A stretch of 60,445 nt of DNA from a virus (Duplodnaviria; Caudoviricetes). The stretch lies in the IMG/VR virus record IMGVR_UViG_3300036985_010229, positions 1-60,445 of that record. One strand, given 5' to 3'. The notes below the pieces were generated by a model. It worked only from the letters and a program-made list of their open reading frames with translations. It made no database searches and was not told the DNA's origin. Positions 10,001 through 55,905 of the stretch are shown here, in pieces. Within the stretch, counting starts at the first letter, position 1. The number at the start of each line of letters is the position of its first letter. The translations under genes were made by a program, and so were the position numbers.

Positions 10001-13000
10001 CGAACGTGTAGGTGCCTTGGAGCACGCCGCCCAGACGCCCGTTCCGAGCCGAGGGCGGGTCAACGTACAGGAAGCTCGACGAAAGGCGGGGGTACTGGAC
10101 CTGTCCCTTGTCCACGAAGGGACCGATCTGCTGGGTGTCGGTCCGAGCGAAGACGAGCCTGTGATTGGCCGCAAGGCCAGGCTGACGAGGGCCAATGAAC
10201 GCGAGGTTCCCGTTGCCCGCCGTGAAGTTGAAGTCCTGCCCCGAGGTGAGCGTCCGGCCAGGCAGAGCGTTCCCGGTCGAGTCCACCTCCCCGAAGAGGA
10301 CGACCTCGAAGGGCTCCGTGGGGAGAAAGCCGCTGGTCCCGAGGAACTGGGCTGCGCCCTCCGGGTAGACCGGGCGTGCCGAGATCCGAACCGCCGTGTT
10401 GGGCATGGTCGCCGACCACGAGAAGCTCTCTTGGAACGGCGTCCCCACCGTGACCGTCGTGGCCCTGCCGTCTGTCGAGAAGTTCGCCTTCACGATCGCA
10501 AACGGCTTTCCGAACACCTCCAGGAGGTGCCCGGCCACTGCGTACTTGGTGAGGTCACCCTCGAACTTGACCTCGACCTGCCCCTTGGGGACCGGCTCGA
10601 ACCGTGGGGTCACGGCGAGGTTGAACGCCTGGGCCAGCGTCGGCAAGAAGCCAGCGTCCGAGCCCACCACAGTCACTGGGGCAGTCCCGAACGGATCGAC
10701 CGTGATCGCCACAGGGCGGTCGGTCAGGAGGGAGAGCGCGTTCGTCCCAGGGTCAAGTGAGCCTGCACCCTGCGGGGTGGACGGGAAGACCGTGACCAGC
10801 GTTGTGTCGCTCGCTGCGTCGTAGGCTGCACTCTTGACGTAGGTCGTGAACGCTCCGACTCGAAGCGCCTTGCCCACGAGGAGGTCGCTCGTGCGGTCTG
10901 TGTCGAGGAGGAACTGTGTCTGTCCCTTGTCGAGTCGGAACGGAGGCCGCCACACTGGGGCCGCCGACACCGTGTAGGCCGTCTCGCCGCCGAACGCCTC
11001 GAAGACGGCGTAGGAGATCGTGACCTTCGTTGTCGAGAGCACCTCAGCCGAGAAGGAGACAGTGTTCCGGCTGAAGTCCACCGAGCAGCCACGGGGGACG
11101 CCGTAGGTCTGCTGCTTCGAGCCTGTGTAGACGACGGGGTCCACAAGCTGATCGACCGTGCGGCCCGTCGGGTTGAACGAGTAGAGTTGGCTCGAAATCC
11201 GAGTCATGACCTCCGCTCGAATGTAGAGCGGGAGGAACTCCTTGACCTGCACGGGGTTGCCGTTGCTGTCGAGGTAGAGCGTGCCTGTGTTGGGCACGGC
11301 CCTGTAGTAGGTCGCCTCGACCAACTGACCTGCACGGATAGGATTGGCGAGGAACGTGAAGGCACCCAAGATCGGGTTCGCCGTCACGTCGTCTGTGCCT
11401 TCGGTGGAAAGCTGCTCCACGAAGTAGACGGGCTTGCCTGCGCCAGCCGCGAGGTCTACCGACGAGAGCGCAATGACCCCGGTGTTGGGGTCGATCTCAG
11501 CCTGCCCGGAGAGCAAATCCACCGCAGGCAGGAGCGTCTCGACGTAGGTGACAGTCGCCGACTGGTACTCGTCGAGGATCGCTGTGCTGAACTTCACCTC
11601 TCCGGTCGAGGTGAGGTACTCGACGTTTGCAGGATTGGTCGAGAACACCGCCACCGGGAGGAGCCCAACACCCTGGACGAACTCCTGCGTGCCGACCCTC
11701 AGATTGAACGACCCCGACGTGAACCTTGCGCCGGTCGTGGGAACGAACAGCACGCCGTTCGCTGTGGCACCCAACACGGCCTGCGTGAGCACCCCGAGCG
11801 GCAGGTCTGTGCCGGTCTGGCCGATCCGAGCGAAGATCGGGCGGCCTCGCTCAATGTCCTTGGCGGAGTCCGCCGGGGAGAGCGTGCTGCCTGCTGTGCC
11901 GAGCGACGCGAGCACTCGGATCTCGAAGGGCTCCGAGGCCAAGTGATTGAACCCACGGTAGACCACGTCCGCCACGGTCGTCGGGTCGATCGTGCCAGGA
12001 GAAGCTCCCTTGTAGACCTCGTAAGAGACGTTCTGCCCGCCGTCCCCGACCAAGAAGCTGGGGCTGACCTGCACCGAGGTCGCCGACGGGATCGCGACCA
12101 CCGAGTAGGAGCCCTGGGCGTTGCCTGAAATGACCTTCAGGCGGTCGCCAGCCGTGACCGTCGCGAAGCTCGCATTGAGGTCCGTGAGCACGTCGGTGCC
12201 CGCTGTGAAGTGGCCTCTTGAGCCCGAGAGGTTGAGCGCGCCCACCCTCGAAATGAGGATCGCCTCACCGGTCGCTCCGCCCTTCGGGAAGAGGAAGTCC
12301 ACCCCCGGTTCGAGGTACACGAAGGGGCCGCCTTCGGAGAGCCGCAGGAACCCGTTGAGTGGTGCGATCAGGCTGTCAGGAACGAGCCCAGCGGCTTCGA
12401 GATTGAGCCCAGCCACCGGAGCGAGAACCTGGCCTGTGCTGCCGCCCGAGGTCAGCCAGGCAAACTTCTTCTCCTCGAAGAGGTACTGCACGTCCGCCCA
12501 GGGCATGAGCGGGGAGTTCACGACAGGCGCGACGCCGGGAGCACCCGCCGCCGACAGCGCGAAGAACACCCCCTCGTCGTAGCCAGCCACGTCCTCGCGG
12601 GGCGGGTAGTCGAGGAACTGGAAGGAGGTGGGGGAGATCCCTTCCGTGAGCGTGCGGTCCGTGAGCCTGTACTTGTCGCGGTAGTCAGGGAGTCCCTGCG
12701 AACCGTCGAGGTCACGAGGCGACCGGTAGAACCCAAACTCTCCACCATAGTCGGGGAGCCAGTTGTGGTCGGTCGCCGACTGGTCGCCCGGCGGAGACGC
12801 CAACCACCCAGGCATGAACCCAAGCGCCCTGCACCCCGAGAGGTCGAGCACACCGCCTGTGCCGAACCCGACGCTGACGAACCCTGTCACCGGGTCAGTG
12901 TGGGCGAGCACAACGCGCCCTGAGAGGGCGTAGGAGGAGCCTGGAGCCGAGGCCAGCACGACCGCCGCGTTGAGGCTTGCAGCGACCTGGGGGGCTGTGT

Positions 13001-14993
13001 AGGAGCCCGCCCCGAGGCTGCTGGCGAGCCAGAGGACTGACGTGCCCCCGAGCATGAAGCTGAGCGTCTCGGTCCCGTCGAGGACGAACGTGTCCTGGAG
13101 CCGCGAGAAGAGCCGAGCCCGCTCTGCGTAGCTGGACGGGACGAACTCGCCCTGCCTGAAATAGATCGGCTTCCCGGTGAGTTGCTTGCGAGGAACGCTC
13201 CCGAACAGCACGAGAGAGCCCGCCCCGACGCGCTTCTGCAAGGCGACGTAGGCCACGTCTCCAGGAACCCTGAACGGGTCAGTCGGTAGCTCGTCCTCGA
13301 ACGACACCGGAATGACGTTCGTGACGGCCCGACCCTCCGTGAAGAGGATCGTGTCACCAATGCCGGAGGAGAGCTTCCGGACGAGGCCCGAGTTGCCCGG
13401 ACGAGGGCTGACCGCACCCGCGACGGGGGGATTGCCGAGCCCGTCTGGCACTTGAAGAATCCCGGACAACCCGAGGGCTGGCAGCGTCTCTGCGTCAGGG
13501 ACGAAGACCTCTTGGGCGGGGTTGTAGCTCGTGACGGGCGTGCCACCCGAGTCCACGAGGAGCACCGGAGCCTTCACCGGCTGCGGGTAGAGATTGAGCG
13601 ACACCCCGTCGTACCGAACGACGGCACCCAAGTAGAGCTTGTCGAACCCAGGATTGGGCACGGCCCGAGTGCCTGGGTCCGCCTTGGAAACGTCAGTTGT
13701 CGAGAGCTTGAGGCGTCCTGTCGAGAGGGCAAAACCGCACTCCCCTTCGAGCACGGTTGCCGCCGCAAGGTCGGACTCCGTGTCAAAGGGAAGTGCAGTG
13801 AGTGGCTGCCGGTTCCCCAAGCGGACGATCGGGCGCTCGCCGGGGCCAGGCACGGGGGCGAGGAACAGTGCCCTTGTCTTCGCTTCGAGGAGCGAGCCCA
13901 CGACGCCCAGGGACTTCTCGGCGAAGGTCTGCGGGACGTACCAAACGTCGAGCCCCTCGTAGGTCTGAATGAAGGCCGGGTTCCAGACGATCTTCCCGGC
14001 CCCCGAGCCAACAACCCCCGCGAGAGAGGGCGAGACGCTCGTGAAGTTGTAGCTCGCGTTCGCCAGGTCGTCCGGAACGACCAGGACGCCCGAGTAGTCG
14101 CCGACCGTCCGGCTGACGACCGGGTAGCTGGCAGCGTCCGGGGCAGGTCCGAGGCGGACCATTGCGTAGGAGTCCCCCGCGTCCGAGCCCGGAAGAAGTG
14201 CGCCCACCTGAGTTGTCGGCCTAGGGTTGAGCGTGTAGCTCCGTCCGTCCGAGGAGAGCTTCCCGAGTGTGGCAGGAGCACCACCCCGGTAGGGCTCCCA
14301 CTTCTGGGCCGCACCGTTCCAGCCGAACCGGCGGGAGTACGGGTCGTTGCGGGTCCACCAGAAGCGGGCCGCCGACACCCAGTAGGAGATCGCCGTGACC
14401 CGGTCCCCACGCGCCTGGGAGAACGCCGGGTCCGTCGGGGAGACCGGCTGCGTCGCCAAGAGCGTGTTCGCCGTCGGCAGGAGCTTGATCGCCCCCGAGC
14501 CCGACACGAACGAGAAGTCTCCGCCCGCCAGCGTCAGCACGAAGGGCGTGGCCGGGCTGTCCCCTCGAACGACCGTGAGGGAGACGACCCCGGCGAGGTC
14601 ACGCCCGCCGTTGTCAGTGACGACGACCCGAGGCGAGCCGTCCGTAGATTGGCCTGTGGGCGAGCCTGCGTCGAAGACGGCGAGGCTGCCCTGTGGGATC
14701 GTCCCAGCACCGTCAGCCGTAGCCCAAGCTGGACCCTCAAGGGTGGTCAGCGTGCCGGTGTTCGCCGCCCAGACCAGGAACTCTTGCTCGCCCCCGAGCG
14801 GGGACTCCAGGACGGCGACTCGGTACTGGTCACCACGAGCCTCGACGAGAGCAGGTCCGCCCGCCGGGTACAGACCAGCGGTGGGCGCGACAACGTCACG
14901 GGCGACGCCGGAGTCAGCCGGTGCGCTCGTGTTCGCGTTCGAGGGCGAGGTCTTCGCTCCCCGCAGCGTGTATCCGTTGAAGAATTCAGCCAC
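4050..14993 (-). CDS. giant virion structural protein (3647 aa), probable baseplate/tail component
   Basis: Uninterrupted 10.9-kb ORF, beta-strand/Gly/Pro-rich. Recurring GD.L.I...G.Y.V modules and D...TGE(V/I)-type motifs are typical of large phage tail/baseplate proteins. Confidence 0.65.
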   Translation of the reverse strand: MAEFFNGYTLRGAKTSPSNANTSAPADSGVARDVVAPTAGLYPAGGPALVEARGDQYRVAVLESPLGGEQEFLVWAANTGTLTTLEGPAWATADGAGTIPQGSLAVFDAGSPTGQSTDGSPRVVVTDNGGRDLAGVVSLTVVRGDSPATPFVLTLAGGDFSFVSGSGAIKLLPTANTLLATQPVSPTDPAFSQARGDRVTAISYWVSAARFWWTRNDPYSRRFGWNGAAQKWEPYRGGAPATLGKLSSDGRSYTLNPRPTTQVGALLPGSDAGDSYAMVRLGPAPDAASYPVVSRTVGDYSGVLVVPDDLANASYNFTSVSPSLAGVVGSGAGKIVWNPAFIQTYEGLDVWYVPQTFAEKSLGVVGSLLEAKTRALFLAPVPGPGERPIVRLGNRQPLTALPFDTESDLAAATVLEGECGFALSTGRLKLSTTDVSKADPGTRAVPNPGFDKLYLGAVVRYDGVSLNLYPQPVKAPVLLVDSGGTPVTSYNPAQEVFVPDAETLPALGLSGILQVPDGLGNPPVAGAVSPRPGNSGLVRKLSSGIGDTILFTEGRAVTNVIPVSFEDELPTDPFRVPGDVAYVALQKRVGAGSLVLFGSVPRKQLTGKPIYFRQGEFVPSSYAERARLFSRLQDTFVLDGTETLSFMLGGTSVLWLASSLGAGSYTAPQVAASLNAAVVLASAPGSSYALSGRVVLAHTDPVTGFVSVGFGTGGVLDLSGCRALGFMPGWLASPPGDQSATDHNWLPDYGGEFGFYRSPRDLDGSQGLPDYRDKYRLTDRTLTEGISPTSFQFLDYPPREDVAGYDEGVFFALSAAGAPGVAPVVNSPLMPWADVQYLFEEKKFAWLTSGGSTGQVLAPVAGLNLEAAGLVPDSLIAPLNGFLRLSEGGPFVYLEPGVDFLFPKGGATGEAILISRVGALNLSGSRGHFTAGTDVLTDLNASFATVTAGDRLKVISGNAQGSYSVVAIPSATSVQVSPSFLVGDGGQNVSYEVYKGASPGTIDPTTVADVVYRGFNHLASEPFEIRVLASLGTAGSTLSPADSAKDIERGRPIFARIGQTGTDLPLGVLTQAVLGATANGVLFVPTTGARFTSGSFNLRVGTQEFVQGVGLLPVAVFSTNPANVEYLTSTGEVKFSTAILDEYQSATVTYVETLLPAVDLLSGQAEIDPNTGVIALSSVDLAAGAGKPVYFVEQLSTEGTDDVTANPILGAFTFLANPIRAGQLVEATYYRAVPNTGTLYLDSNGNPVQVKEFLPLYIRAEVMTRISSQLYSFNPTGRTVDQLVDPVVYTGSKQQTYGVPRGCSVDFSRNTVSFSAEVLSTTKVTISYAVFEAFGGETAYTVSAAPVWRPPFRLDKGQTQFLLDTDRTSDLLVGKALRVGAFTTYVKSAAYDAASDTTLVTVFPSTPQGAGSLDPGTNALSLLTDRPVAITVDPFGTAPVTVVGSDAGFLPTLAQAFNLAVTPRFEPVPKGQVEVKFEGDLTKYAVAGHLLEVFGKPFAIVKANFSTDGRATTVTVGTPFQESFSWSATMPNTAVRISARPVYPEGAAQFLGTSGFLPTEPFEVVLFGEVDSTGNALPGRTLTSGQDFNFTAGNGNLAFIGPRQPGLAANHRLVFARTDTQQIGPFVDKGQVQYPRLSSSFLYVDPPSARNGRLGGVLQGTYTFESPDAYYVRAVPFQTYVGEVSLELQKQATIQEPSNGPTISTGASKSNADYGRVGLVSESQNLVDRDRVARAFLGFYNAVVSSFEQIEETLDGSLVGERDGKLRLYVGKNDPWVPPGYEDAITGALNPRVLWFDVWLSARQGLPTIRLVATDPITNPLDTTTDSNGRPVGSYQDPSGFSALTGYQGVLVKNDVDDVVLLTRTRVQRKLAGFLYFRVTASGLYAPLSEANPFSRLFPERTTGFTTLGPGLDGNESTGNPGVYSAGKFGLDPLGFLFGSSFSMRSTTGSTIGALENPVLGQIQNVLGVQARDRLPRARVWAYSATGFPEVDPLSAGRPCFIATPLPLVDFPILSDTGLPDTSKLASQSVGPIPTGFNDLLTGDPELHTPPFNAGAQLALGYPEGNASELGYLGTLIPVPTLPPSSRYAGVFVEQVLKGCVVTLKSKDLVGADVPILNAALLISLTGASSGVPISPVRGDTLFVVPVSGASLPATSDPPTVAELQTFTTALPGYRTGTDFNFTPRTGEITDATLPSFSDPTLFGLKEITGQRPPAPLSTLEAQVSFQNGSRLPTKFPALEGGKTLDSGDYSLPYYGAPLSELEVLSDTAALITDLVRVDSPSPPPANPPQVHLYTTEAVYPDETLGADGTVSTSPALLATLSLFEDLSRKTTSGAYPPPPGHAGVGNVEPYDLLLIQAPTTGTPGLAGFPLGATGIHSIAAISNGSPNQVDLPRFVSAVKEGTLLDYFLNHAISWVGYPAYATGLVVQENTTLAPIETTFDVSSVGSANIVLDDGVGGGLLPVPVGGLNDVFALNGKGSRFTLGLIDKATGQFAVGSTVIVEKLGGGANILLCPFEVSGDGGATFVPIVPGGFYFLPDKVVIKTAAPNVFFDFAPYNPVVGPPGVTTTGGFHDFSISVLCLMSQTGSIDVDRVTFKDRIDFRTALPRGFIHPSSPTGSPMECGLATYRFSSETYNTVISSFVMRDNQVNNVATVNAGLPFTFPARSWLTPSVNGVGTWAANSGSLRVLGFEGRGNLPIEATGVTFTAIPSSRQDEAGPIYNGLMVVGELLGAGAPYRFTVENNFTTPNDFAGSLSLVQPGDIAVVKGFVDPTTTPATPFGSGKVGTYLVRAAVTETPGFLPGHQLDLSTTLGSVGDWLDFTFPTVVSFNSLGPDLTVTSLVPLTLLQDLNAAPVAVPFAFPPSGRVYVVLDATAVGLASSAVSAAYTSLDTVGSRFLGLSAFQDGVGGVLTLAQFQAAAVAGLAVSGMTVVPVVAHDAEVPSNLPGLTFWPTPPAGTEYFFGFRKVTATRVGPPVVYDASAFNLVGVPPAPGQVAVYSKVKVPSTTFLQLDQPVYDDIPGALDLTNFNWPGVHGAGPACLLPGDVWDLEYHARHGIFVEPSFPVSGNDLGLPRVNVVDATHSLTAAEVGSRDATSYLGAGPAGGSYLEFAQVEVRRIRRFHPLLNDLVTAFLRLRFVYEIRRGLVQTFSSTGSAGALVAEPVNTLLYPTPLAGGTATQLGDFTDPNIGIKSGDQVRFLDALGAVVAEAEILTVETDGKTLTISKNALTGVTPGTRFEVYLRTAPIPHEQSCEELLDLTVDRLLLDRRADLVGQTGGKVTYLPDADPQVAYDQSINKLSDTDPSVNFAALGILPGDVLVIDPAGALRGPTGFPVTPEKGTRPFGDDGVLPRGAPVYVPGSPSRTDDNRGYYKVLSATATSLEVVPLGGTLAADRNSPDVVFDSSYAEYPTVHGSNLSGAGNGLEGQMDLRPTAFCDGTNSFKGDWLSVAPFSYKVIRPTGFLTEETVELILSTRERMLSWIEELQGLFEANKSGTYFVFQRDQHIADLGDPSDPSDGLGVLFDAYLTSLEGRIFVSPFANTSDCLSILDRRFWGLDFRLDYLTPPFAPLDPPYSDFANGVGRPVLPDRIEEALQQRDKLRDSRWAWLTLRTDRVTGTIEAIRRFGRELPRRHAEQERLLAMVKGTQTP

Positions 14994-24691: not shown

Positions 24692-24710
24692 GGGTGTCCT
24701 CTCACTCCGG

Positions 24711-24736
24711 AAGCGATTGAGCCCAGGCCGTTTTCA
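24711..24736 (-). promoter_or_regulatory. bipartite promoter motif TGAAAA-N15-CGCTT
   Basis: One of 14 copies with an identical 15-nt spacer. Confidence 0.75.
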
Positions 24737-24933
24737 CGATTCACCCAGGAACGCACGGCACCGCCGCTCCCGCTCGTCATGGCGGAGGTGTCTGAAGGCC
24801 GTGACTCCGGACACCATGTGCTCTGGGATCTCCTCGTGGGGCAGGCCCTCACACGAGAGGCTCTCGACCAAGCTGTGGCTCGTCGGGTTCTTCACCGACG
24901 CCACGCGCCACCGGAGCACTGCGTCGTGGCGGC

Positions 24934-31435: not shown

Positions 31436-31454
31436 GTTCGTCTCCTCACCCCAT

Positions 31455-31480
31455 AAGCGAACGGCGAGGAGCCTTTTACA
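31455..31480 (-). promoter_or_regulatory. bipartite promoter TGTAAA-N15-CGCTT
   Basis: Motif copy followed by an SD and ATG. Confidence 0.8.
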
Positions 31481-31970
31481 TGATCCGCTCAGCAAGATCG
31501 TCAAGTACGTCCGCCACGCCGCTTTCCCCAGGGCAGTCGGGGCAGCGGAGGCTGCGCTCGTAGTAGCCCGCACACGAGGGCTTGCCCTCGTTGATCAGCG
31601 GGTGGTTCGGGGCTCGCCGCGACGCACACTGTTCGAGGAGGCTGGTACGCAGCGCCGCTGCTGCCTCAACAAGAGCCTCACGCTGAACACGGCGGTCGTA
31701 CTGCTGCGCGAGGTCCGTGAAGCTCACAGCGAGGGCTGCGTGAAGAACCTCGGAGCACCGCGCCACCGTGTGTTGGAGCCCAGCCCTGTCGGCATGGGGG
31801 TCAGACACGGAGGCGTCGAGAGCGTCCCGCGCAATCTGATACGCGAGCGCAGCCTCCTTCAATCGAGCGAAAGCGCCGAGAAGGGTGTTGCGCTCCCCCC
31901 TGAAGTGCTCGACGAGACTCCGGGCCTCTTCGAGTTCACGTTGGCGTGTGGCAGTCTCTCGTTGAGTCAT
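31476..31970 (-). CDS. hypothetical protein
   Basis: AGGAG SD before MTQRE... Confidence 0.55.
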   Translation of the reverse strand: MTQRETATRQRELEEARSLVEHFRGERNTLLGAFARLKEAALAYQIARDALDASVSDPHADRAGLQHTVARCSEVLHAALAVSFTDLAQQYDRRVQREALVEAAAALRTSLLEQCASRRAPNHPLINEGKPSCAGYYERSLRCPDCPGESGVADVLDDLAERIM

Positions 31971-32956: not shown

Positions 32957-32971
32957 GGTTCCTCACCCCTG

Positions 32972-32997
32972 AAGCGAACGGGGGGACCCCTTTTACA
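32972..32997 (-). promoter_or_regulatory. bipartite promoter TGTAAA-N15-CGCTT
   Basis: Motif copy followed by GGTGAGG SD and ATG. Confidence 0.8.
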
Positions 32998-33223
32998 CGT
33001 TTCCCTGTTCGCCCTTGCTCTTTTCGATCCCCTCGCGGACGGCTTCTTCCACGAGAGCCAGCAGCCGCTTGCCGCCCGCCGAGTTCATGTCGAGGACGGG
33101 GTACTCAGCCCGCCACGTCTTGACAGCGAGCAGGGCGATCTTCCGTGGGTCCGCCACATAGTCGCTCGCCAGCATGGACTTGGTTCCGTCTTCGACCGAC
33201 AGATTGACGACGCCTACTCGCAT
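32993..33223 (-). CDS. hypothetical protein
   Basis: 76 aa, GAGGAG SD. Confidence 0.6.
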   Translation of the reverse strand: MRVGVVNLSVEDGTKSMLASDYVADPRKIALLAVKTWRAEYPVLDMNSAGGKRLLALVEEAVREGIEKSKGEQGNV

Positions 33224-33659: not shown

Positions 33660-34312
33660 GAGACAGTCCTGCTCTCCTTGAGGAGTGTGTCGAGCCGCTG
33701 AAGTGCTGCGTGTGCGAAGACCATTGTGGTCGAGACGATCTTGCCTGAGGGGACACTCTCCCCGTCGCCGTTGAGCGCCTCGTAGACCTCTCGCCGGACT
33801 TCCTCGTGAGTGGAGTCCCCGACCATGTCCAGGGCGTGCTCCAGGGCTTCGCGGAGGTCCCGCTTCTTGGAGTCCACTGCGCCGTCCTCGTCCACCTCGC
33901 CCTCAGACGCCTGCTTGATCAGGTCTTGGATCTCTTCGCTGAGGGTGTCGTCGTCGTGGGTGTAGTACACGGTGTCCGCCGTGTTGGACCCGATCAGGGC
34001 CTTCTCCACGAAGTAGTGGTCGTCGGGGCGACCACGGACGGCCATCCAGTGGACGGTCGCGAGCGCGTTGTCCTCCGCCGAGAGCTTCTCGTTGGCGTGG
34101 AAGTAGGCGAAGATCACGGGGGAAATGTCCCCGTGAACGAGGAGCTTCCGGCCTGCGAGGACGATCACCTCGAACCAGAAGGTCGAGGTGCCCGGCTGCT
34201 TGACGAGCCAACGCCCGTGGCTCGACTCGACGATCTGGTGCTTCGCAAACGAGTTGCGAGCGTCTTCCATTTGGTCCGTGACGCGCTGCTTGGTGCTGCG
34301 AGTGGGCTTCAT
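33656..34312 (-). CDS. conserved hypothetical phage protein
   Basis: 218 aa; F..H......W....PGTS.FWF.V......L.V.GD. Confidence 0.7.
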   Translation of the reverse strand: MKPTRSTKQRVTDQMEDARNSFAKHQIVESSHGRWLVKQPGTSTFWFEVIVLAGRKLLVHGDISPVIFAYFHANEKLSAEDNALATVHWMAVRGRPDDHYFVEKALIGSNTADTVYYTHDDDTLSEEIQDLIKQASEGEVDEDGAVDSKKRDLREALEHALDMVGDSTHEEVRREVYEALNGDGESVPSGKIVSTTMVFAHAALQRLDTLLKESRTVS

Positions 34313-34319
34313 GCGTGCC

Positions 34320-34733
34320 TCAGTTCAGGGTGGCCCGGCGTGCGCGGTACCGCGCAATCACGGCGTGCATTTCCGCGAACATTTCGTCCACGGTCGAGGC
34401 GGGCATTGACGGGTCCACCACGAGCACTGACGTGCCGACAACGTCCCCGCCGGGGTTGACCGCACACTGGTAGAGCACGGACGCGACCGGGCTGACCTTC
34501 CGGCCCTTGAGGCGACCTTCCTCGTCGAGCCAGAGGCTCCCGAGTCCGGGGAGCACCACCAGTTCCACGCAGTCGCAGTCACACAGCCGGTAGAGGGCTT
34601 CGAGCTTGGGCTCGAACCCGGTGTCCTCGTAGTGGTCGAAGAGCGTCTCAGTCTCCTCCGCCGAGAGGCGACGAGGCGACTCGCTGCCCTCAGGGAAGAC
34701 GTAGACCGCGACAGGCTTGGTGGTCATGTACAT
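34320..34733 (-). CDS. DUF3846-like protein
   Basis: LEALY.L..CDCVELV....LWLDEEGRLK......AS......DVVG..VLV. Confidence 0.7.
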   Translation of the reverse strand: MYMTTKPVAVYVFPEGSESPRRLSAEETETLFDHYEDTGFEPKLEALYRLCDCDCVELVVLPGLGSLWLDEEGRLKGRKVSPVASVLYQCAVNPGGDVVGTSVLVVDPSMPASTVDEMFAEMHAVIARYRARRATLN

Positions 34734-34738
34734 GGCGA

Positions 34739-34981
34739 TCAGGCTCCGTAGAATTCCGAGTTGGGGTGCCGCACGAGGAAGGTTGCGACTTCGAGCTTGT
34801 GATCGAGACGTTGGCCAGGCCCGAAACCTGACTGACGATCGAACCACGCGAAGTACCGGACCATGCGTTCGCAGTTCCCCGAGCCGCTCAGAATGCTCTC
34901 CGTCTCGACGGAGGGCGTCTGGAAGAGGCTGCAACGAGCCCCCTTTTTCCCAGGGGTTGCGAGGTGGAGATTGGTGCTCAT
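34739..34981 (-). CDS. hypothetical protein
   Basis: 80 aa, GGCGTAAG upstream. Confidence 0.6.
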   Translation of the reverse strand: MSTNLHLATPGKKGARCSLFQTPSVETESILSGSGNCERMVRYFAWFDRQSGFGPGQRLDHKLEVATFLVRHPNSEFYGA

Positions 34982-35024
34982 GGTCAGTCCTGCTTACGCC
35001 TTGCTGCTGATTGGGCTGTCTCTT

Positions 35025-35119
35025 AGCGCCGGAGCGTGGACTCGAACCACCAGGTTTGACCCTGCCCTCCCAACCCTTGCGGGCCACCACCTGGTGCTTT
35101 CTGGAGGGTACCGACACCC
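35025..35119 (-). ncRNA. putative structured small RNA (terminal stem, pseudoknot, GNRA hairpin, T-loop arm); tRNA/Y-RNA-like but not a canonical tRNA
   Basis: Intergenic and starts right after the promoter at 35123-35148. Pairings: GGTGTCGG/CCGGCGCT, CCCTCC/GGAGGG, CACCAGGT/ACCTGGTG, GGCCC-GCAA-GGGTT, GTGG-TTCGAGT-CCAC. Confidence 0.6.
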
Positions 35120-35122
35120 ATG

Positions 35123-35148
35123 AAGCGAACGGGGGGAGCCCTTTTACA
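35123..35148 (-). promoter_or_regulatory. bipartite promoter TGTAAA-N15-CGCTT
   Basis: Motif copy upstream of the structured RNA. Confidence 0.8.
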
Positions 35149-35165
35149 CGATTCGTCGGGGTCTT

Positions 35166-35798
35166 TCAGATCTTCGGCGGCTGCCGCCGAACGGAACTCT
35201 TGACCTTCACGTTGAGCTTCGTCTTGTTCGCGTAGGTGTGGCAGGGGACAATGTTGAACCCGAGCATTCGCTCCGCCGCAGCAACGACGAACTTGAGGGG
35301 CTGGTGGACCGAGCTACGCTCGATCTCGATTGGGACGCCCACAGAGCGGGTGAGCACACGCCCCCTGCTGTCCGGGAGGTAGTGCCACCCGTCCTCACGC
35401 AACGCCTTGTCCTTTGCAAACCATGCGTCCACGTCGGACTGGTTGAGCACCTTGAACTCGCGGCACCAACCACCGCCCCACGCACCGCCCCACGCGCAGT
35501 AGGAGGTCGTGCCCCGGTCGATCCCCGCGTCGATTGCACGGCTCAGAATGGTCGGGCCAGTGTCTGACCTGTCCGAAGCGAAGATCGCCTCGATACGGTG
35601 TGGGTAGCACTCACCATGGTGAGTGTCGATCACCACGTCTCCGACGCGGATCGTGTCTCCCGCCCCGACACACTCGGTCAGGGTGCCCGGTGCGGTCGCG
35701 TGAATGATCGTGGAGCCGATCTGAAGGCTCCCGACGCCCAGGAACCCCATGTTCTCTGCAATGGCGTCTACGAGCGCCTGCTCTTCCTTGCTGGTCAT
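35166..35798 (-). CDS. hypothetical protein
   Basis: 210 aa, coupled. Confidence 0.65.
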   Translation of the reverse strand: MTSKEEQALVDAIAENMGFLGVGSLQIGSTIIHATAPGTLTECVGAGDTIRVGDVVIDTHHGECYPHRIEAIFASDRSDTGPTILSRAIDAGIDRGTTSYCAWGGAWGGGWCREFKVLNQSDVDAWFAKDKALREDGWHYLPDSRGRVLTRSVGVPIEIERSSVHQPLKFVVAAAERMLGFNIVPCHTYANKTKLNVKVKSSVRRQPPKI

Positions 35799-35974
35799 TC
35801 GTGTCTCCTGTGGAGCTTCTCGTCTTGGACCGCGTCATATGCGCGTTCGGCCTGCTCACGACTCGTGTTGATCCCCTCACGAGCCTGCGTTGCTTGGATC
35901 ACGGACACCACCAGCCTTCGGCGGAGGTCCGGGTCTCGGAGGATCTCCTTCACGTCTACCCGTCTGCCGGTCAT
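35795..35974 (-). CDS. hypothetical protein
   Basis: 59-aa ORF MTGRRVDVKEILRDPDLRR..., GGAG SD, ATGA overlap. Confidence 0.55.
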   Translation of the reverse strand: MTGRRVDVKEILRDPDLRRRLVVSVIQATQAREGINTSREQAERAYDAVQDEKLHRRHE

Positions 35975-36018
35975 TGGTGTCTCCGTGTCTCAGCTTTCAA
36001 GGTGCTGAGCTACCTGTC

Positions 36019-36228
36019 TCACCCGTCAGTCTCCGTGAATCGGATCTTGAGGCGCTCGCCGGACTCGACGATCTCCCCGGACGCCCACCAGGAACGCTTC
36101 CCCTTGATACGCCGTGCGCCCGCCGTGCTGACCTTGAAGTGCCCCACGAGGGACTGAGGCGTGAGGATTTCGAGGTCGTAGACCTTGCCGGGCTCGACCA
36201 CGAACGTCACCGAACGCGGGGCAGCCAT
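36019..36228 (-). CDS. hypothetical protein
   Basis: GGAGG SD, 69 aa. Confidence 0.55.
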   Translation of the reverse strand: MAAPRSVTFVVEPGKVYDLEILTPQSLVGHFKVSTAGARRIKGKRSWWASGEIVESGERLKIRFTETDG

Positions 36229-36393
36229 GTCACCACCTCCGGGCATTGGAGACGCCGGGCCAACCGGCCCCAATGTTCCCGCCGTTGCACGAGCGGGCCT
36301 CCGCGTCGCGGTTGCTGTTGAGGAAGATTGCGGTGTGCTCCGCCGCCTTGTCCCCGAGCCGCCCGAGCAGGATCAGCGTGTCGATTGAGAGCC

Positions 36394-36585
36394 TCACCGG
36401 ACCACCTCGTGGGAGCACTCGGCTCCGCAGTTGCGGCACTGGAAGTGGGTGCGGTTGCCGAGCGTCCCGAGCACGCCGACCGGCCCGCCACACAGAGCGC
36501 AGGGCTCCGGCTCTTCGGGGAAGTACTCAAGGCAGAGGTCTTCCTCGCCCGCGAACATCTCTTCCCGTGCTGCTTGATGGTTCAT
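36394..36585 (-). CDS. zinc-ribbon protein
   Basis: C.LCGG....LG.LG...HF.CRNCG; variant promoter upstream. Confidence 0.65.
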   Translation of the reverse strand: MNHQAAREEMFAGEEDLCLEYFPEEPEPCALCGGPVGVLGTLGNRTHFQCRNCGAECSHEVVR

Positions 36586-36972: not shown

Positions 36973-37281
36973 TCACCCCTTCTGACCCGCGAAGCCGTTG
37001 ATTTGCTCCCAGCCCGATCCGCCGTGCATCGGGCTAGACCCAGGGCCGAACCACCGGTCGTTGCTCGACGTGGTGAAGCCACGAGTGCGCTTCTCGAACG
37101 CCCTGGGGGCGAGCTTGAGGCCGTAGCTCTCCAGGTCCGCCCGGACCTTGTTCCGCGACCGCTGGAGCCCGTAGGCAAGCTCCCCGAGGTCCTCGTGCGT
37201 GAACTGGTCCTGCTCTTCGTCCATGACGTACTGGACGAAGGACTCGATCGACTCGTACTCAGGGGCCGTCGGGGTGCTCAT
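36973..37281 (-). CDS. hypothetical protein (probably leaderless mRNA)
   Basis: ATG is 7 nt downstream of the CGCTT box; no SD. Confidence 0.65.
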   Translation of the reverse strand: MSTPTAPEYESIESFVQYVMDEEQDQFTHEDLGELAYGLQRSRNKVRADLESYGLKLAPRAFEKRTRGFTTSSNDRWFGPGSSPMHGGSGWEQINGFAGQKG

Positions 37282-37288
37282 ACCCTCT

Positions 37289-37368
37289 AAGCGAACGAGG
37301 GCACGAGCTTTACACGATTCAGTCGATTCCTGCGACCTATCATGTAAAAGCCAGTGCCCCATTCGCTT
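37289..37368. promoter_or_regulatory. divergent pair of bipartite promoters
   Basis: Minus copy at 37289-37314 and plus copy at 37343-37368, both TGTAAA-N15-CGCTT. Confidence 0.8.
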
Positions 37369-37387
37369 CATGGGTGAGGAAGACGAC

Positions 37388-37649: not shown

Positions 37650-38819
37650 CTACCCCTTGATACACAAAACCTGCTTCAGTTCGTGCTTGACCTCGACCAG
37701 GTCGCGCTGGTTCTCCATGACCCGGTCAATGTTCTTGTAGGCGCTGGGGATCTCGTCGAGAACACCCCCGTCCTTGCGGCACTCGACGCCAGCCGTCTGC
37801 TCTTCGAGGTCGTCCCTCGTGAACCGACGCTTGGCCTCGCCACGGGACATTCGGCGGCCTGCCCCATGCGAGGCAGAGCAGAAGCTCTCAGCGCAGCCGA
37901 GCCCGCTCACGATATAGCTCTTGGTGCCCATGGAGCCGGGAATGATCCCCAACTCTCCGAGCCGGGCCGAGATCGCACCCTTGCGGGTCACGAACAGGTC
38001 GTCCCCGAAGTGCGTCTCCTCAGAGACGTAGTTGTGGTGACACGCGATCACCGGGTCGTACTCGATCTGCGGGAAGTGGTCGAGCAGCACGTCCTTGAGG
38101 AGCGAGACCATGACCTGGCGGTTCTCAGCCGCGTACCGCTGCGCCCAGAACAGGTCGTGCCTGTAGTCCTGCATTTCCTTCGTGCCAGCGAGGAACACGG
38201 CGAGGTCTCGGTCCACCAGGACCTGGTTGTGTTCGAGCTTCTTCGCAGCCGAGATATGGATCTCAGCGAGGGTCTTCCCAATGTTCCGGGAGCCCGAGTG
38301 GAGCATGACCCACACCCGCCTCTCGGTATCTATGCAGACCTCAATGAAGTGGTTGCCGCCGCCGAGCGTCCCCATTTGGATCTGCGCCTTCGACAGGTCC
38401 GACTGCACCTTCGGGTGCAGGTTCTTGAACTCCTCCCACAGCCTGCTCTTGCGAGAGTAGGGGCTCATTCCCTTGCTGTGCCCGTTGTGGGCGACAGGGA
38501 CAGCCGCCTCGAAGTCGTTGCGGAGCGCGAGGAGCGAGTGGGGCAGGTCGTGCGAGCGGAGATTGGTGCGGATCGCAGCCATGCCGCAGCCAATGTCCAC
38601 GCCGACCGCAGCCGGGGACACAGCGCCCTTCATGGCGACGACGCTTCCGACCGTCGCTCCGATCCCGTAGTGAACGTCGGGCATGACCGCGACGTGGTGT
38701 GCGACCCACGGCAGCGAGGCCGTGTTGCGAAGCTGCGTCAACGCCGCCGACTCGACCTCCTCAAGGGGGGACCAGATCTTGACCGGGACGTGCGACGAAC
38801 TGATTTCGGAGATTGACAT
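37650..38819 (-). CDS. rtcB: RNA-splicing/repair ligase RtcB
   Basis: MPDVH.G.GATVG, VGVDIGCG, GTLGGGNHF, HSGSR, HHNY, GIIPGSMG, SHGAGR, DEIP.AYK, C-terminal KG. Confidence 0.95.
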   Translation of the reverse strand: MSISEISSSHVPVKIWSPLEEVESAALTQLRNTASLPWVAHHVAVMPDVHYGIGATVGSVVAMKGAVSPAAVGVDIGCGMAAIRTNLRSHDLPHSLLALRNDFEAAVPVAHNGHSKGMSPYSRKSRLWEEFKNLHPKVQSDLSKAQIQMGTLGGGNHFIEVCIDTERRVWVMLHSGSRNIGKTLAEIHISAAKKLEHNQVLVDRDLAVFLAGTKEMQDYRHDLFWAQRYAAENRQVMVSLLKDVLLDHFPQIEYDPVIACHHNYVSEETHFGDDLFVTRKGAISARLGELGIIPGSMGTKSYIVSGLGCAESFCSASHGAGRRMSRGEAKRRFTRDDLEEQTAGVECRKDGGVLDEIPSAYKNIDRVMENQRDLVEVKHELKQVLCIKG

Positions 38820-41843: not shown

Positions 41844-41863
41844 GGTGTCGCCCTTCACTCTGG

Positions 41864-41889
41864 AAGCGATTGGGACGGTGCCCTTTACA
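41864..41889 (-). promoter_or_regulatory. bipartite promoter TGTAAA-N15-CGCTT
   Basis: Motif copy heading the HD-CoaB-MTase-RtcB run. Confidence 0.8.
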
Positions 41890-42211
41890 CGTTTCCGTTC
41901 TCTTGCTTCACGCGGGCCAGCAGTCTGATCCCGAGCAGGACGCTCCCCAGGTCCGGGAAGCTATCGTGCATTGCCTGCGTGTGCGGGTCAGCCTCCGCGT
42001 TGAGGCTCCACATGAGGATCTCGGTGAGCGGCACACCCTCCTCGACCTTCCTGTTGTCGGACAGGCGGACCAACTCGTAGGTGACGACGGTGCCTCCGGC
42101 ACGGAGCCCGACCTTGCCGAGCTTCCACCCGTACTTGCCGAGCACCTTGTCGAGAGTCTTCCGGTTCTGGGACTGCTGTTCGAGCACCGGGTCGCCCTGG
42201 GTGTCACTCAT
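41885..42211 (-). CDS. hypothetical protein
   Basis: MSDTQG..., ATGA overlap. Confidence 0.55.
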   Translation of the reverse strand: MSDTQGDPVLEQQSQNRKTLDKVLGKYGWKLGKVGLRAGGTVVTYELVRLSDNRKVEEGVPLTEILMWSLNAEADPHTQAMHDSFPDLGSVLLGIRLLARVKQENGNV

Positions 42212-43216: not shown

Positions 43217-43537
43217 CTAGTACCGATCCCTATCCGCCAGAGGTCCCTGGCCCAACTCGCTGAACGAGGTCAGGTCGTTGACACACTCGGTCCCCGGCTT
43301 GAACTTCAGGGGCACGGTCTTGGTCCCCGGCTTGAACTTCAGAGGTGCGTTCAGGAGCTTCACGAAGTTCGTGTACGTCTCGCGCACGTCAGGGTGGTCG
43401 TCCATGTGGAGCCCCTGCCTGAGCACCGCCGCGAGGAACGCACGCTGGGTCTCCTTCAAGTCTCGGGCGTACTTCCGCCCCGCCTTGATTTGGGCCTGCT
43501 GTTCCTTGAGCAGAGCACGTTCGATTGCGGTGGGCAT
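43217..43537 (-). CDS. hypothetical protein with internal PLKFKPGT duplication
   Basis: 106 aa, GGCGTAAGGAG upstream. Confidence 0.6.
   Translation of the reverse strand: MPTAIERALLKEQQAQIKAGRKYARDLKETQRAFLAAVLRQGLHMDDHPDVRETYTNFVKLLNAPLKFKPGTKTVPLKFKPGTECVNDLTSFSELGQGPLADRDRY
43289..43342. repeat. 21-bp direct repeat, 33-bp period
   Basis: GGTCCCCGGCTTGAACTTCAG at 43289-43309 and 43322-43342. Confidence 0.9.
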
Positions 43538-44839: not shown

Positions 44840-44858
44840 GCCGAACCTTCCACCCGTG

Positions 44859-44951
44859 AAGCGATTGGGGAGGGTGCCCTTACACGATTGAGGTCACGAA
44901 AAGATTCGTGTATCATGTAAAAGCTCCTTCCCCGTCCGCTTATGGCGTAAG
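44859..44951. promoter_or_regulatory. divergent pair of bipartite promoters plus GGCGTAAG
   Basis: Minus TGTAAG-N15-CGCTT at 44859-44884; plus TGTAAA-N15-CGCTT at 44916-44941; GGCGTAAG at 44944-44951. Confidence 0.8.
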
Positions 44952-44961
44952 GAGATAGAGC

Positions 44962-50805: not shown

Positions 50806-50823
50806 GTTGTCTCCTCGCCATTG

Positions 50824-50849
50824 AAGCGATTGGGAGACACCACTTTTCA
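50824..50849 (-). promoter_or_regulatory. bipartite promoter TGAAAA-N15-CGCTT
   Basis: Motif copy. Confidence 0.8.
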
Positions 50850-50865
50850 CGATTGGGTCAGCGAA

Positions 50866-53722: not shown

Positions 53723-54001
53723 CTAGTCACGATCTCTTACGCCGCTGCCGCCGCAGGAGCCACACCGAAGGGCTGCGTCCTCGCCGCCGCCTGAGCCGCC
53801 GCAGGACGGGCACTCGCCGTCGTCCTCTTCGGTACACTCGACCTCGATAATCTCCGTGGAGTAGGCGACGCCCTCGTTGGTGTCTGCGATCTCGGAGGGG
53901 TCCTGCCCTTCCACGTCCTCACGCGCCTCGTCCTCGTCCTCTGCCTCGACGGAGACGGTGTACTGGCGGGTGATCAGGATCGTCACGTCGTACTTGTTCA
54001 T
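53723..54001 (-). CDS. acidic small protein with DnaJ-type zinc-finger motif
   Basis: KYDV.I......V.VEAE.E.EA, then CPSCGGSG...CGSCGGSG. Confidence 0.65.
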   Translation of the reverse strand: MNKYDVTILITRQYTVSVEAEDEDEAREDVEGQDPSEIADTNEGVAYSTEIIEVECTEEDDGECPSCGGSGGGEDAALRCGSCGGSGVRDRD

Positions 54002-54043
54002 GGGAGGGGCTCCAGCGGGTTGAGCGACCTATCTGCACCCATG

Positions 54044-54069
54044 AAGCGATTGGGACGGTGCCCTTTTCA
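54044..54069 (-). promoter_or_regulatory. bipartite promoter TGAAAA-N15-CGCTT
   Basis: Motif copy; its spacer is nearly identical to the copy at 41864. Confidence 0.8.
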
Positions 54070-54082
54070 CGATTTGAGAGAG

Positions 54083-55835: not shown

Positions 55836-55861
55836 GATTCACCCCCACCCCTTCACCTAGT

Positions 55862-55887
55862 AAGCGTGTGGGAGGCTCCCATTTACA
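55862..55887 (-). promoter_or_regulatory. bipartite promoter TGTAAA-N15-CGCTT
   Basis: Motif copy. Confidence 0.8.
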
Positions 55888-55905
55888 TGATTCGAGGTGA
55901 TCAAT

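What the first reader, a model, noticed from the sequence alone, without database searches (positions are those of the whole stretch)
35025..35148. Promoter-driven ~95-nt pseudoknotted RNA with a tRNA T-loop, 2.5 kb from RtcB
Seen: the 34982-35165 gap has no credible ORF, yet a perfect bipartite promoter (35123-35148) points into it. On the minus strand the RNA has an 8-bp end-to-end stem (GGTGTCGG 35118-35111 / CCGGCGCT 35032-35025). Two helices cross as a pseudoknot: CCCTCC 35108-35103 / GGAGGG 35070-35065 and CACCAGGT 35096-35089 / ACCTGGTG 35055-35048. It also has a GNRA hairpin (GGCCC-GCAA-GGGTT) and a T-arm (GTGG-TTCGAGT-CCAC) that competes for 3 nt with the second helix. There is no anticodon arm and no CCA. 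Known: bacterial and phage Y RNAs (YrlA) are tRNA mimics linked to RtcB/Ro60, and HDV-like theta ribozymes accompany phage tRNAs. The helix order P1-P2-P3-P1'-P2' is HDV-like, but the conserved HDV L3 is absent. Inference: a possibly new tRNA-mimic, decoy or catalytic RNA working with the phage RNA-repair genes.
Basis: partly seen in the sequence, partly recalled or inferred. Interest (0 to 1): 0.82.

Follow-up and report, generated by a model that had tools for sequence, protein, structure and literature searches.

The report
Orphan tRNA-like small RNA in phage
Behind one copy of a repeated phage promoter lies a roughly 94-base non-coding stretch that can fold like a tRNA without an anticodon; it is probably a small tRNA-mimic RNA, but it matches no known family and the proposed pseudoknot or ribozyme is not supported.

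Summary
The sequence features are at the stated coordinates. The gap is non-coding by codon statistics. The "promoter" is not a sigma-70 consensus. It is one of 12 copies of a phage-specific bipartite motif, and at least eight copies are followed by SD plus start; this copy runs into the RNA instead.

The RNA (35118 to 35025, minus strand) has a nested cloverleaf-like minimum-energy fold:
- an 8-bp terminal stem followed by UA
- a 6-bp helix enclosing a GG-loop hairpin and a GCAA-capped hairpin
- a variable-arm-like hairpin
- a T arm

The fold is no better than shuffles (z -1.33). The 8-bp crossing helix has pair probability 0.01 and comes from two CCWGG quasi-palindromes. ARAGORN and Rfam give nothing (tRNA-Sec 12 bits against a cut-off of 47; no tRNA, tmRNA or HDV match), and no homolog was found.

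Support for a real element:
- In other metagenomes homology breaks at the RNA 3' end, and the replaced bases keep the terminal stem paired.
- A distant relative (G001) has the same promoter. Its only promoter copy followed by a T-loop RNA drives a strongly structured RNA that shares UCCAGAAAGC. G001 also encodes Ro60 and a YrlA-like RNA.

Verdict: a plausible new tRNA-mimic small RNA whose function is only inferred. The HDV-like reading and the RtcB link are unsupported.

The parts
35115..35154 (-). Copy of the 12-member phage promoter-like motif (gAATCrTGwAAA, spacer, TCGCTTcanGGGTG). Its 3' GGGTG overlaps the first bases of the RNA.
   Evidence: Repeat family D1 (10 copies) plus D12 (2 copies on the + strand). 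Alignment A1 has invariant columns. At least 8 other copies are followed by SD plus start within about 27 nt. The same motif occurs 15 times in G001. It is not a sigma-70 match.
35025..35118 (-). Predicted small RNA, about 94 nt, with a nested cloverleaf-like fold.
   Evidence: MFE and centroid are identical at -43.3 kcal/mol. Helix pair probabilities are 0.81-1.0, apart from the outermost G.U of the GCAA hairpin at 0.02. No coding potential in any frame. No Rfam or ARAGORN match.
35111..35118 (-). 5' strand of the terminal (acceptor-like) stem, followed by UA (35110-35109).
35025..35032 (-). 3' strand of the terminal stem. Homology with other strains ends at 35028.
   Evidence: an X2 44-kb contig replaces 34765-35027 with 767 other letters. 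In an X3 contig the letters after 35028 differ but keep or improve the last three pairs (U.G to U-A, G-C kept, G.U to G-C) and add two more.
35096..35105 (-). 10-mer UCCAGAAAGC, shared with the promoter-driven Y-like RNA of relative G001.
   Evidence: In G001 it sits in the 5' strand of the long terminal stem. Here it spans the end of P2 and the junction.
35065..35108 (-). Helix P2 (CCCUCC 35108-35103 / GGAGGG 35070-35065), enclosing two hairpins.
   Evidence: pair probability 0.95-0.99.
35085..35096 (-). Hairpin CACC-AGGU-GGUG (D-arm-like, GG in a 4-nt loop).
Evidence: 0.87-0.89.
35072..35085 (-). GCAA-capped hairpin (GGCCC-GCAA-GGGUU). It takes the place of an anticodon arm but has no anticodon loop.
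35051..35064 (-). Hairpin CAGG-GUCAAA-CCUG, like the long variable arm of a type II tRNA.
   Evidence: With the T arm it matches 27 of 30 bases of a Ser-type tRNA region of cluster M mycobacteriophages (E 0.2, weak).
35036..35050 (-). T arm GUGG-UUCGAGU-CCAC, followed by 3 unpaired bases GCU (35035-35033).
   Evidence: It is 95% identical over 20-21 nt to the T arm of the YrlA-like element of G001.
34765..35027 (-). Downstream cassette (spacer plus 80-aa ORF 34739-34981) that is swapped out in another strain.
   Evidence: table 5. The ORF has a weak coding score of 0.161 and no family match.
37650..38819 (-). RtcB RNA ligase gene (context only).
   Evidence: Pfam PF01139 4.3e-122 and phrog_1075 1.6e-136.

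Best explanation
This is a real small non-coding RNA gene of a GC-rich, probably very large, phage.

Inferred steps:
- Transcription starts at about G35118-35116, from one copy of the phage's own repeated promoter motif. The start site is inferred from the motif's position relative to the SD in other copies.
- The first roughly 94 nt fold into a nested tRNA-shaped structure: an 8-bp acceptor-like stem, UA, a D-like GG hairpin and a GCAA-capped stub clamped by an extra 6-bp helix, a type-II-like variable hairpin, and a T arm.
- The RNA has no anticodon loop and no CCA, so it cannot decode.
- There is no terminator, so transcription reads on into a swappable downstream cassette. The RNA would have to be cut out by tRNA-type 3' processing.
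- Its most likely role is a tRNA mimic that works by being bound. Either it is a Y-RNA-like partner of a Ro60-type or other tRNA-recognising protein, or it is a decoy for tRNA-directed host enzymes.

Shown here: the sequence features, the promoter family, the absence of coding potential, the module boundary at the 3' end, and the parallel RNA in a relative.

Not shown: transcription, processing, the three-dimensional shape, and any partner.
For: 1. Dedicated promoter copy with no gene behind it. There are 12 copies in the window. In the regex scan 7 of 10 copies have SD plus start within 27 nt, and this one has a T-loop RNA instead.
2. All three frames of 35025-35121 score as non-coding: -0.086, -0.228 and -0.29, against 0.376 +/- 0.194 for genes.
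3. T arm, UA after the stem, a variable-arm-like hairpin and a GG hairpin occur in tRNA order. The MFE equals the centroid, and helix probabilities are 0.81-1.0.
4. The relative G001 shares the promoter (15 copies). Its only copy followed by a T-loop RNA drives a 158-nt RNA with z -7.06 that carries the same 10-mer UCCAGAAAGC shortly after the promoter. That RNA has a 93% homolog with one compensatory pair change.
5. G001 also has a Ro60-like gene (vWA_Ro60 2.1e-18, TROVE 1.1e-5) and a YrlA-architecture RNA. That RNA's T arm is the best G001 match to ours.
6. In DNA contigs of other sediment samples, 35028-35154 has 0 differences. The homology break lies at 35028, and the replaced bases preserve the terminal stem (variant fold -47.5 with a 10-bp stem).
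Against: - No homolog of this RNA was found in any collection searched, so there is no covariation test. This covers.
- The fold is not more stable than shuffles (z -1.33).
- The T-loop word occurs once more in the window, apparently inside an ORF.
- The stem-preserving change has about a 1-in-8 chance for three bases.
- A shared 10-mer between two RNAs of this size has roughly a 1-in-100 chance anywhere; this is my estimate.
- The 0 differences over 91 nt are uninformative, because flanking divergence is only about 1%.
- There is no expression evidence. The one RNA run (X7) has a single 250-nt contig, at 35505-35745 inside the upstream ORF, and none over the RNA.
- No TROVE gene lies in the 60-kb window.
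- The RNA has no CGAA or GNCGAA motif.
- Three unpaired bases lie between the T stem and the terminal stem, which a tRNA does not have.
Confidence: 0.5

Rival explanations
1. Relic or recombination scar. A remnant of a type II tRNA or of a G001-type Y-like RNA was left behind a promoter. It is transcribed only as the 5' leader of whatever cassette follows and has no function of its own.
For: - Partial likeness only: the 3' half resembles a Ser-type variable arm plus T arm. The 5' part shares just a 10-mer with the G001 RNA, and the alignment is otherwise poor.
- ARAGORN gives a distorted parse only at an 80% threshold.
- The fold is no better than shuffles.
- There is an internal near-duplication, CC(A/U)GGUGGU, 40 nt apart.
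- A mosaic joint lies at its edge.
Against: - A promoter copy is kept in front of it with no SD or start, unlike at least 8 other copies.
- The terminal stem is preserved across the mosaic joint.
- The module is kept intact while the downstream cassette is exchanged.
- A relative has a parallel promoter-plus-RNA arrangement.
Confidence: 0.25
2. Cis-acting leader. The structured, tRNA-like 5' end acts on its own transcript, as an RNase P or RNase Z processing site, a 5' stabiliser, or a promoter-proximal element that modifies RNA polymerase.
For: - No terminator lies after the RNA: 0 terminator-like sites in 34000-36500.
- An SD-like AGGA and the ATG of the 80-aa ORF follow 43 nt after the stem.
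- The element sits directly at the predicted transcript start.
Against: - The downstream cassette differs between strains while the RNA stays the same. It is therefore not tied to one gene.
- Only 1 of 12 promoters has it.
- The G001 counterpart is a closed, long-stemmed RNA typical of a stand-alone RNA.
Confidence: 0.15
3. Self-cleaving HDV-like or otherwise pseudoknotted catalytic RNA.
For: - The two crossing complements exist (6 and 8 bp).
- A C directly follows the 3' strand of the 6-bp helix, where HDV-like ribozymes place the catalytic C at the first position of J4/2. That feature is taken from passages of PMC10879173.
Against: - No ribozyme family matches at E<=10.
- The crossing helix has probability 0.01, and the nested fold is at least about 4 kcal/mol better even with no pseudoknot penalty.
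- The crossing helix destroys the T arm.
- The candidate P3 has a 4-nt GCAA loop, so no L3 or P1.1 can form.
- Theta ribozymes sit 3' of tRNAs, and the window has no tRNA.
- The 8-nt complement follows from two CCWGG quasi-palindromes.
Confidence: 0.02
4. A 32-residue leaderless micro-protein, encoded from ATG 35121 to TAA 35022.
For: The ORF spans exactly the module. It stays open, two codons longer, in the variant 3' end.
Against: - The codon score of -0.086 is about 2.4 sd below the gene mean.
- The peptide is Gly-rich and of low complexity, and there is no SD.
- The ATG lies inside the promoter motif, upstream of the inferred start site. The same ATG is present in only some of the 12 copies.
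Confidence: 0.03

Closest known systems
Bacterial and phage Y RNAs (YrlA, YrlB, D. radiodurans Yrn1, Thermus phage phiLo Yrl1/2)
   Same: - A small RNA whose 5' and 3' ends pair, and which contains a tRNA-like T arm but no anticodon.
- Per passages of PMC4201824, Yrn1 has its arms in the normal tRNA order, as here, and YrlB has only a possible T arm.
- A relative phage with the same promoter motif has Ro60 and Y-like RNAs.
   Different: - No TROVE gene in the 60-kb window.
- No GNCGAAN0-1G or CGAA motif.
- The arm order is not V-T-AS-D.
- The terminal stem is short (8 bp).
- No sequence homology apart from the 10-mer shared with the second Y-like RNA of G001 and the T-arm match to its YrlA-like element.
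- I did not verify that Rfam 15 holds a YrlA model. The supplementary tables of PMC4201824 that list phage YrlAs could not be seen.
Type II tRNAs (Ser, Leu, Sec) of large phages
   Same: - Terminal stem, UA at positions 8-9, a long-variable-arm-like hairpin directly before a T arm with a UUCGAGU loop.
- 27 of 30 bases match a cluster M mycobacteriophage Ser-type tRNA region.
   Different: - No anticodon loop: a GCAA tetraloop sits in its place.
- An extra 6-bp clamp helix.
- A 4-bp T stem and an 8-bp terminal stem, with 3 unpaired bases between them.
- No CCA or discriminator context.
- ARAGORN finds 0; the Rfam tRNA model gives no match and tRNA-Sec gives 12.0 bits against a cut-off of 47.
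HDV-like / theta ribozymes
   Same: The order of the helix strands can be written as a crossing pair with a hairpin between them.
   Different: - No CM match.
- No L3 or P1.1.
- Not placed 3' of a tRNA.
- The pseudoknot is energetically disfavoured.
tRNA-like domain of tmRNA
   Same: Acceptor-like stem plus T arm, without an anticodon.
   Different: - Only 94 nt.
- No tag reading frame and no pseudoknot ring.
- ARAGORN tmRNA search is negative even at an 80% threshold.

Membership tests
tRNA (Rfam RF00005 / ARAGORN) | Cloverleaf with a 7-nt anticodon loop on a 5-bp stem, recognised by tRNA models | tested here: not met
   ARAGORN finds 0 genes in the window. It finds none at default, with introns, or at a 90% threshold, and only a mismatched parse at 80%. 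Rfam gives no tRNA match at E<=10; tRNA-Sec scores 12.0 bits against 47.
tRNA (Rfam RF00005 / ARAGORN) | T arm with a UUCRANY-type loop closed by G-C pairs | tested here: met
   GUGG-UUCGAGU-CCAC at 35050-35036. The stem is 4 bp, not 5.
YrlA-type Y RNA | Encoded next to a Ro60 (TROVE) gene (PMC4201824, passages) | tested here: not met
   PF05731 has no match in the 60-kb window. The record is estimated to be only 11% complete, so the rest of the genome is untested.
YrlA-type Y RNA | GNCGAAN0-1G (CGAA) motif near the 5' end | tested here: not met
   Read directly from the sequence: there is no CGAA. The nearest stretches are GUCGGUA and CCAGAAAG.
YrlA-type Y RNA | Stem-loops in the order V, T, AS (closed acceptor-like), D between the paired ends | tested here: not met
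   The order here is D-like, GCAA stub, V-like, T. The G001 element L057:1461-1603 does show T, AS, D.
Y RNA in general | Binds a Ro60 protein | not testable with these tools
   Needs pull-down or EMSA with the lineage's Ro60-like protein (G001, L060:634-2373).
HDV-like / theta ribozyme | Nested double pseudoknot with P1, P1.1, P2, P3/L3 (PMC10879173, passages; the role of L3 and P1.1 is recalled) | tested here: not met
   No Rfam ribozyme match. The hairpin between the strands has a 4-nt loop. The crossing helix has probability 0.01.
HDV-like / theta ribozyme | Catalytic C at the first position of J4/2 | tested here: inconclusive
   A C (35064) follows GGAGGG. That is a 1-in-4 event and carries no weight without the rest of the core.
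HDV-like / theta ribozyme | Sits directly 3' of a tRNA gene | tested here: not met
   0 tRNA genes in the window. A promoter lies upstream instead.
tmRNA | tRNA-like domain plus a tag-encoding reading frame | tested here: not met
   ARAGORN -m finds none at an 80% threshold. Rfam gives no tmRNA match.

The most novel reading that the evidence does not exclude
This RNA and the promoter-driven 158-nt RNA of relative G001 are two architectures of one undescribed family of phage tRNA-mimic RNAs in a GC-rich lineage of very large phages. In this reading the conserved single-stranded word UCCAGAAAGC, rather than CGAA, is the recognition site for the lineage's Ro60-like protein or another protein. 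The anticodon-less tRNA body recruits or diverts host tRNA-handling enzymes during infection.
Probability: 0.2. Interest if true: 0.7.

Novelty: new variant of a known kind. Interest (0 to 1): 0.45.

Why it matters
tRNA mimics such as Y RNAs and the tmRNA tRNA-like domain show how viruses and cells reuse the tRNA shape to recruit or mislead RNA-handling proteins. A promoter-driven, anticodon-less tRNA-shaped RNA with no match in Rfam, in a lineage whose relative carries Ro60, Y-like RNAs, 37 tRNAs and a tmRNA, would widen the set of phage tRNA mimics. It would also offer a compact test object of about 94 nt with a defined promoter and a defined 3' edge.

The present evidence is one sequence plus strain variants. 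The finding is a lead, not a result.

Tried and rejected
**Homolog searches that found nothing for this RNA**
- blastn 'near' and 'distant' against 50,697 phage records. Only a 30-nt variable-arm/T-arm match appeared, E 0.2.
- Relatives of the two flanking proteins in IMG/VR: none.
- 45 RtcB loci plus other loci, searched with a single-sequence covariance model. Over 55 sources and 620,983 bases, only the window itself matched (126.9 bits). The next hit was 20.5 bits, an ordinary type II tRNA.
- The model against G001, G002 and G003: no match in G001 or G002, 15.6 bits in G003. Against Myxococcus phage Mx1: 17.6 bits.
- Exact 24-mer in IMG/VR: 0 matches.
- Pattern TCCAGAAAGC-N40-70-GGTTCGANTCC. 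IMG/VR gave 3 stretches, of which only G001 is real. By blastn of all fetched loci they gave only a homolog of the G001 RNA (L082) and none of ours; the rows I read were ordinary tRNAs, tmRNAs or coding matches.
- 401 Myxococcota genomes: 15 short matches. The 8 for which loci were fetched all lie in what look like coding stretches. One of the 15 is in the unpublished genome G200, and only the count rests on it.
- Earlier findings of this scan: nothing.

**Promoter scans for more relatives**
Two IMG/VR scans gave 8 and 21 stretches. Only G001 is a true relative. Mx1 lacks the motif.

**Synteny**
The flanking proteins have no homolog in G001. Only 7 G001 ORFs (11 segments) match the window, at 35-69% identity.

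**Expression**
The RNA run X7 holds only a 250-nt contig inside the upstream ORF and nothing over the RNA. These are contigs, so absence proves nothing.

**Not attempted**
Covariation analysis was not possible, because no homolog alignment exists.

**Rejected readings**
- sigma-70 promoter
- intron-containing tRNA
- tRNA-Sec
- micro-protein

Full report
**What is in the sequence**

- an 8-pair terminal stem, with three G.U pairs
- CCCUCC/GGAGGG
- the perfect 8-nt complement CACCAGGU/ACCUGGUG
- a GCAA-capped hairpin
- a GUGG-UUCGAGU-CCAC T arm

No CCA follows the stem. RtcB lies at 37650-38819 (Pfam 4.3e-122).

The gap is non-coding. A 32-codon ORF from ATG 35121 to TAA 35022 overlies the RNA. 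Its codon log-likelihood is -0.086 per codon and the other two frames score -0.228 and -0.29. For comparison, 329 in-frame gene windows score 0.376 +/- 0.194. The long GTG-started ORF 34320-35117 is non-coding in its N-terminal extension (-0.365).

**The promoter**

A sigma-70 scan finds nothing at 35123-35148. The site is one of 12 copies of a 40-nt two-block motif: gAATCrTGwAAA, about 14-15 variable bases, then TCGCTTcanGGGTG. Ten copies are on the minus strand and two on the plus strand. All point the same way as the ORF that follows.
- A 26-nt core recurs at 32964-32989 with two mismatches. None of 100 shuffles gave two matches.
- In a regex scan, 7 of 10 window copies have an SD plus start codon within 27 nt. 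The copy at 33003, which the regex missed, does too.
- The copy at 35154-35115 runs straight into the RNA.
- The layout recalls promoters of ECF-type sigma factors. That resemblance is recalled and was not tested.
- The transcription start near 35118-35116 is inferred from where the SD begins in the other copies.

**Fold**

The minimum-energy and centroid structures are the same nested, cloverleaf-like fold at -43.3 kcal/mol:
- terminal stem, then UA
- a 6-bp helix (P2) enclosing CACC-AGGU-GGUG and GCCC-GCAA-GGGU
- a CAGG-GUCAAA-CCUG hairpin
- the T arm
- three unpaired bases, then the 3' strand of the terminal stem

Helix pair probabilities are 0.81-1.0. The energy is not unusual, however: z is -1.33, and 20 of 200 shuffles fold as well.

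The crossing 8-bp helix has pair probability 0.01.
- The structure that contains it, without P2, is -30.6 kcal/mol.
- Adding P2's increment of about -9 with no pseudoknot penalty still falls short of -43.3.
- Forming it removes two hairpins and three of the four T-stem pairs.
- The complementarity comes from two near-identical quasi-palindromes, CACCAGGUG and AACCUGGUG, both CCWGG cores. Each pairs locally in the nested fold.

**Known families**

- ARAGORN finds no tRNA or tmRNA in the window. It finds none in the region at default settings, with introns, or at a 90% threshold. At 80% it gives a parse with several mismatches.
- Rfam 15 gives nothing at gathering scores. At E<=10 it gives only chance alignments. 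The best tRNA-clan hit is tRNA-Sec at 12.0 bits against a cut-off of 47. There is no HDV, twister, hammerhead or tmRNA match.
- The 3' part (variable-arm-like hairpin plus T arm) matches 27 of 30 bases of a Ser-type tRNA region in cluster M mycobacteriophages. The E-value is 0.2, so this is weak on its own.
- The T-loop word GGTTCGANTCC occurs exactly twice in the window. With one mismatch allowed it occurs 7 times against 7.04 expected. It is notable only because it falls in this gap.

**Relatives**

- Neither flanking protein has a relative in IMG/VR.
- A covariance model of the single sequence found no homolog in 55 sources, including 45 RtcB loci.
- Scanning IMG/VR for the promoter motif found one true relative: the 199-kb contig G001, estimated 45% complete.
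- G001 shares only a few proteins with the window, at 35-69% identity. It has 15 copies of the promoter motif, 12 of them followed by SD plus start.
- G001 also has 37 tRNAs and a tmRNA, and a 579-aa Ro60-like protein (vWA_Ro60 2.1e-18, TROVE 1.1e-5).
- Inside its tRNA array lies an RNA with the YrlA architecture (z -3.25):
  - paired ends, with GGCGAA near the 5' end
  - a T arm
  - a closed 8-bp acceptor-like hairpin
  - a D arm

  Its T arm is the best G001 match to our T arm, at 95% over 20-21 nt.
- Exactly one G001 promoter copy is followed by a T-loop RNA. That RNA is 158 nt, with a terminal stem of about 28 bp, a T arm and a GG hairpin (z -7.06). A 93% homolog in a metagenome contig shows one compensatory G-C to C-G change.
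- That RNA and ours share the 10-mer UCCAGAAAGC shortly after the promoter. In G001 the word is paired in the long stem; here it is largely unpaired. The rest of the two RNAs does not align convincingly.

**Strain variation**

DNA contigs from other sediment samples hold the locus.
- In a 44-kb contig of run X2 the sequence is colinear on both sides, but 34765-35027 is replaced by 767 other letters. The joint lies three bases inside the 3' strand of the terminal stem.
- In a 754-nt contig of X3, 35028-35154 (promoter plus RNA) has no differences and the downstream letters differ. Those new letters turn U.G into U-A, keep G-C, turn G.U into G-C, and add two further pairs (variant fold -47.5 kcal/mol).
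- Three random bases would pair about one time in eight, so this is mild support.
- The X3 contig also differs upstream of the promoter. Identical promoter copies can mislead an assembler, so I do not count that.
- The absence of differences inside the RNA is uninformative at roughly 1% flanking divergence.
- The single RNA-library contig lies inside the upstream ORF and says nothing about the RNA.

**Interpretation**

The best reading is a real, promoter-driven, non-decoding tRNA mimic. It rests on five points:
- a promoter copy kept without a gene
- the lack of coding potential
- tRNA-ordered arms with a T arm
- a module edge that coincides with the predicted 3' end and preserves the stem
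- a parallel promoter-plus-T-loop RNA in a relative that carries Ro60 and Y-like RNAs

According to passages of PMC4201824, bacterial Y RNAs include forms with the arms in normal tRNA order (Yrn1) and forms with only a T arm (YrlB). The same passages say Ro60 contacts mainly the 5' strand. Passages of PMC12135203 show that phage Ro60 binds phage Y-like RNAs identified by a CGAA motif.

This RNA fails the YrlA tests made here. It has no CGAA, the arm order is different, and no TROVE gene lies in the 60 kb. I therefore do not file it as a Y RNA. The Ro60-partner idea is one of two sub-hypotheses; the other is a decoy for tRNA-directed enzymes.

The window's other genes include the following (81 ORFs scanned):
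- RtcB
- HD-type phosphohydrolases
- nucleotide kinases
- an RNase T-like exonuclease
- several methyltransferases

This is compatible with RNA repair, but it does not link any of them to this RNA.

**Limits**

- There is one sequence and no covariation.
- There is no expression data.
- The supplementary tables of PMC4201824 that list phage YrlAs could not be seen.
- I did not verify that Rfam holds a YrlA model.

**Score**

Interest is 0.45. This is a credible orphan tRNA-like RNA in an under-sampled phage lineage. It is worth a Northern blot and a few enzyme assays. It is not the pseudoknotted ribozyme or RtcB partner that was proposed.

Noticed in passing
window 24703-24742, 31447-31486, 32964-33003, 35115-35154, 37281-37320, 41856-41895, 44851-44890, 50816-50855, 54036-54075, 55854-55893 (minus); 37338-37380, 44911-44953 (plus): Twelve copies of a two-block phage promoter-like motif. 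Two pairs are arranged divergently (37281-37380 and 44851-44953). The same motif occurs 15 times in the distant relative G001. It is not sigma-70-like, and no sigma factor gene was seen among the Pfam families matched at E<=1e-4 by 81 ORFs of the window.
   Followed up: partly
L052:5551-5708 (G001) and L082:1661-1825: A promoter-driven 158-nt RNA with a terminal stem of about 28 bp, a T arm and a GG hairpin (z -7.06). The metagenome homolog shows one compensatory pair change. It looks like a second Y-like RNA of a Ro60-encoding phage and has no Rfam match.
   Followed up: partly
L057:1461-1603 and L060:634-2373 (G001): An RNA with YrlA architecture (T arm, closed 8-bp acceptor-like hairpin with a GAAA loop, canonical D arm, GGCGAA near the 5' end) sits inside an array of 37 tRNAs. 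It is about 4.5 kb from a Ro60-like gene whose product is 46% identical to a Myxococcus phage Mx1 protein. G001 also encodes a tmRNA.
   Followed up: partly
window 34765-35027: The 80-aa ORF cassette downstream of the RNA is replaced by 767 unrelated bases in another strain (run X2). This is a mosaic joint at the edge of the RNA.
   Followed up: partly
window 4050-14993 (minus): A single open reading frame of 3647 codons with gene-like third-position GC content (0.82).
   Followed up: no
window 54001-54075 and 37281-37320 (minus): Two further promoter copies lack the usual SD plus start within 27 nt. One has a leader of about 35-40 nt before its ATG, and the other has an ATG 8 nt after the motif.
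   Followed up: no
window 43286-43351: Two tandem copies of a 33-nt unit, 85% identical, apparently inside an ORF.
   Followed up: no
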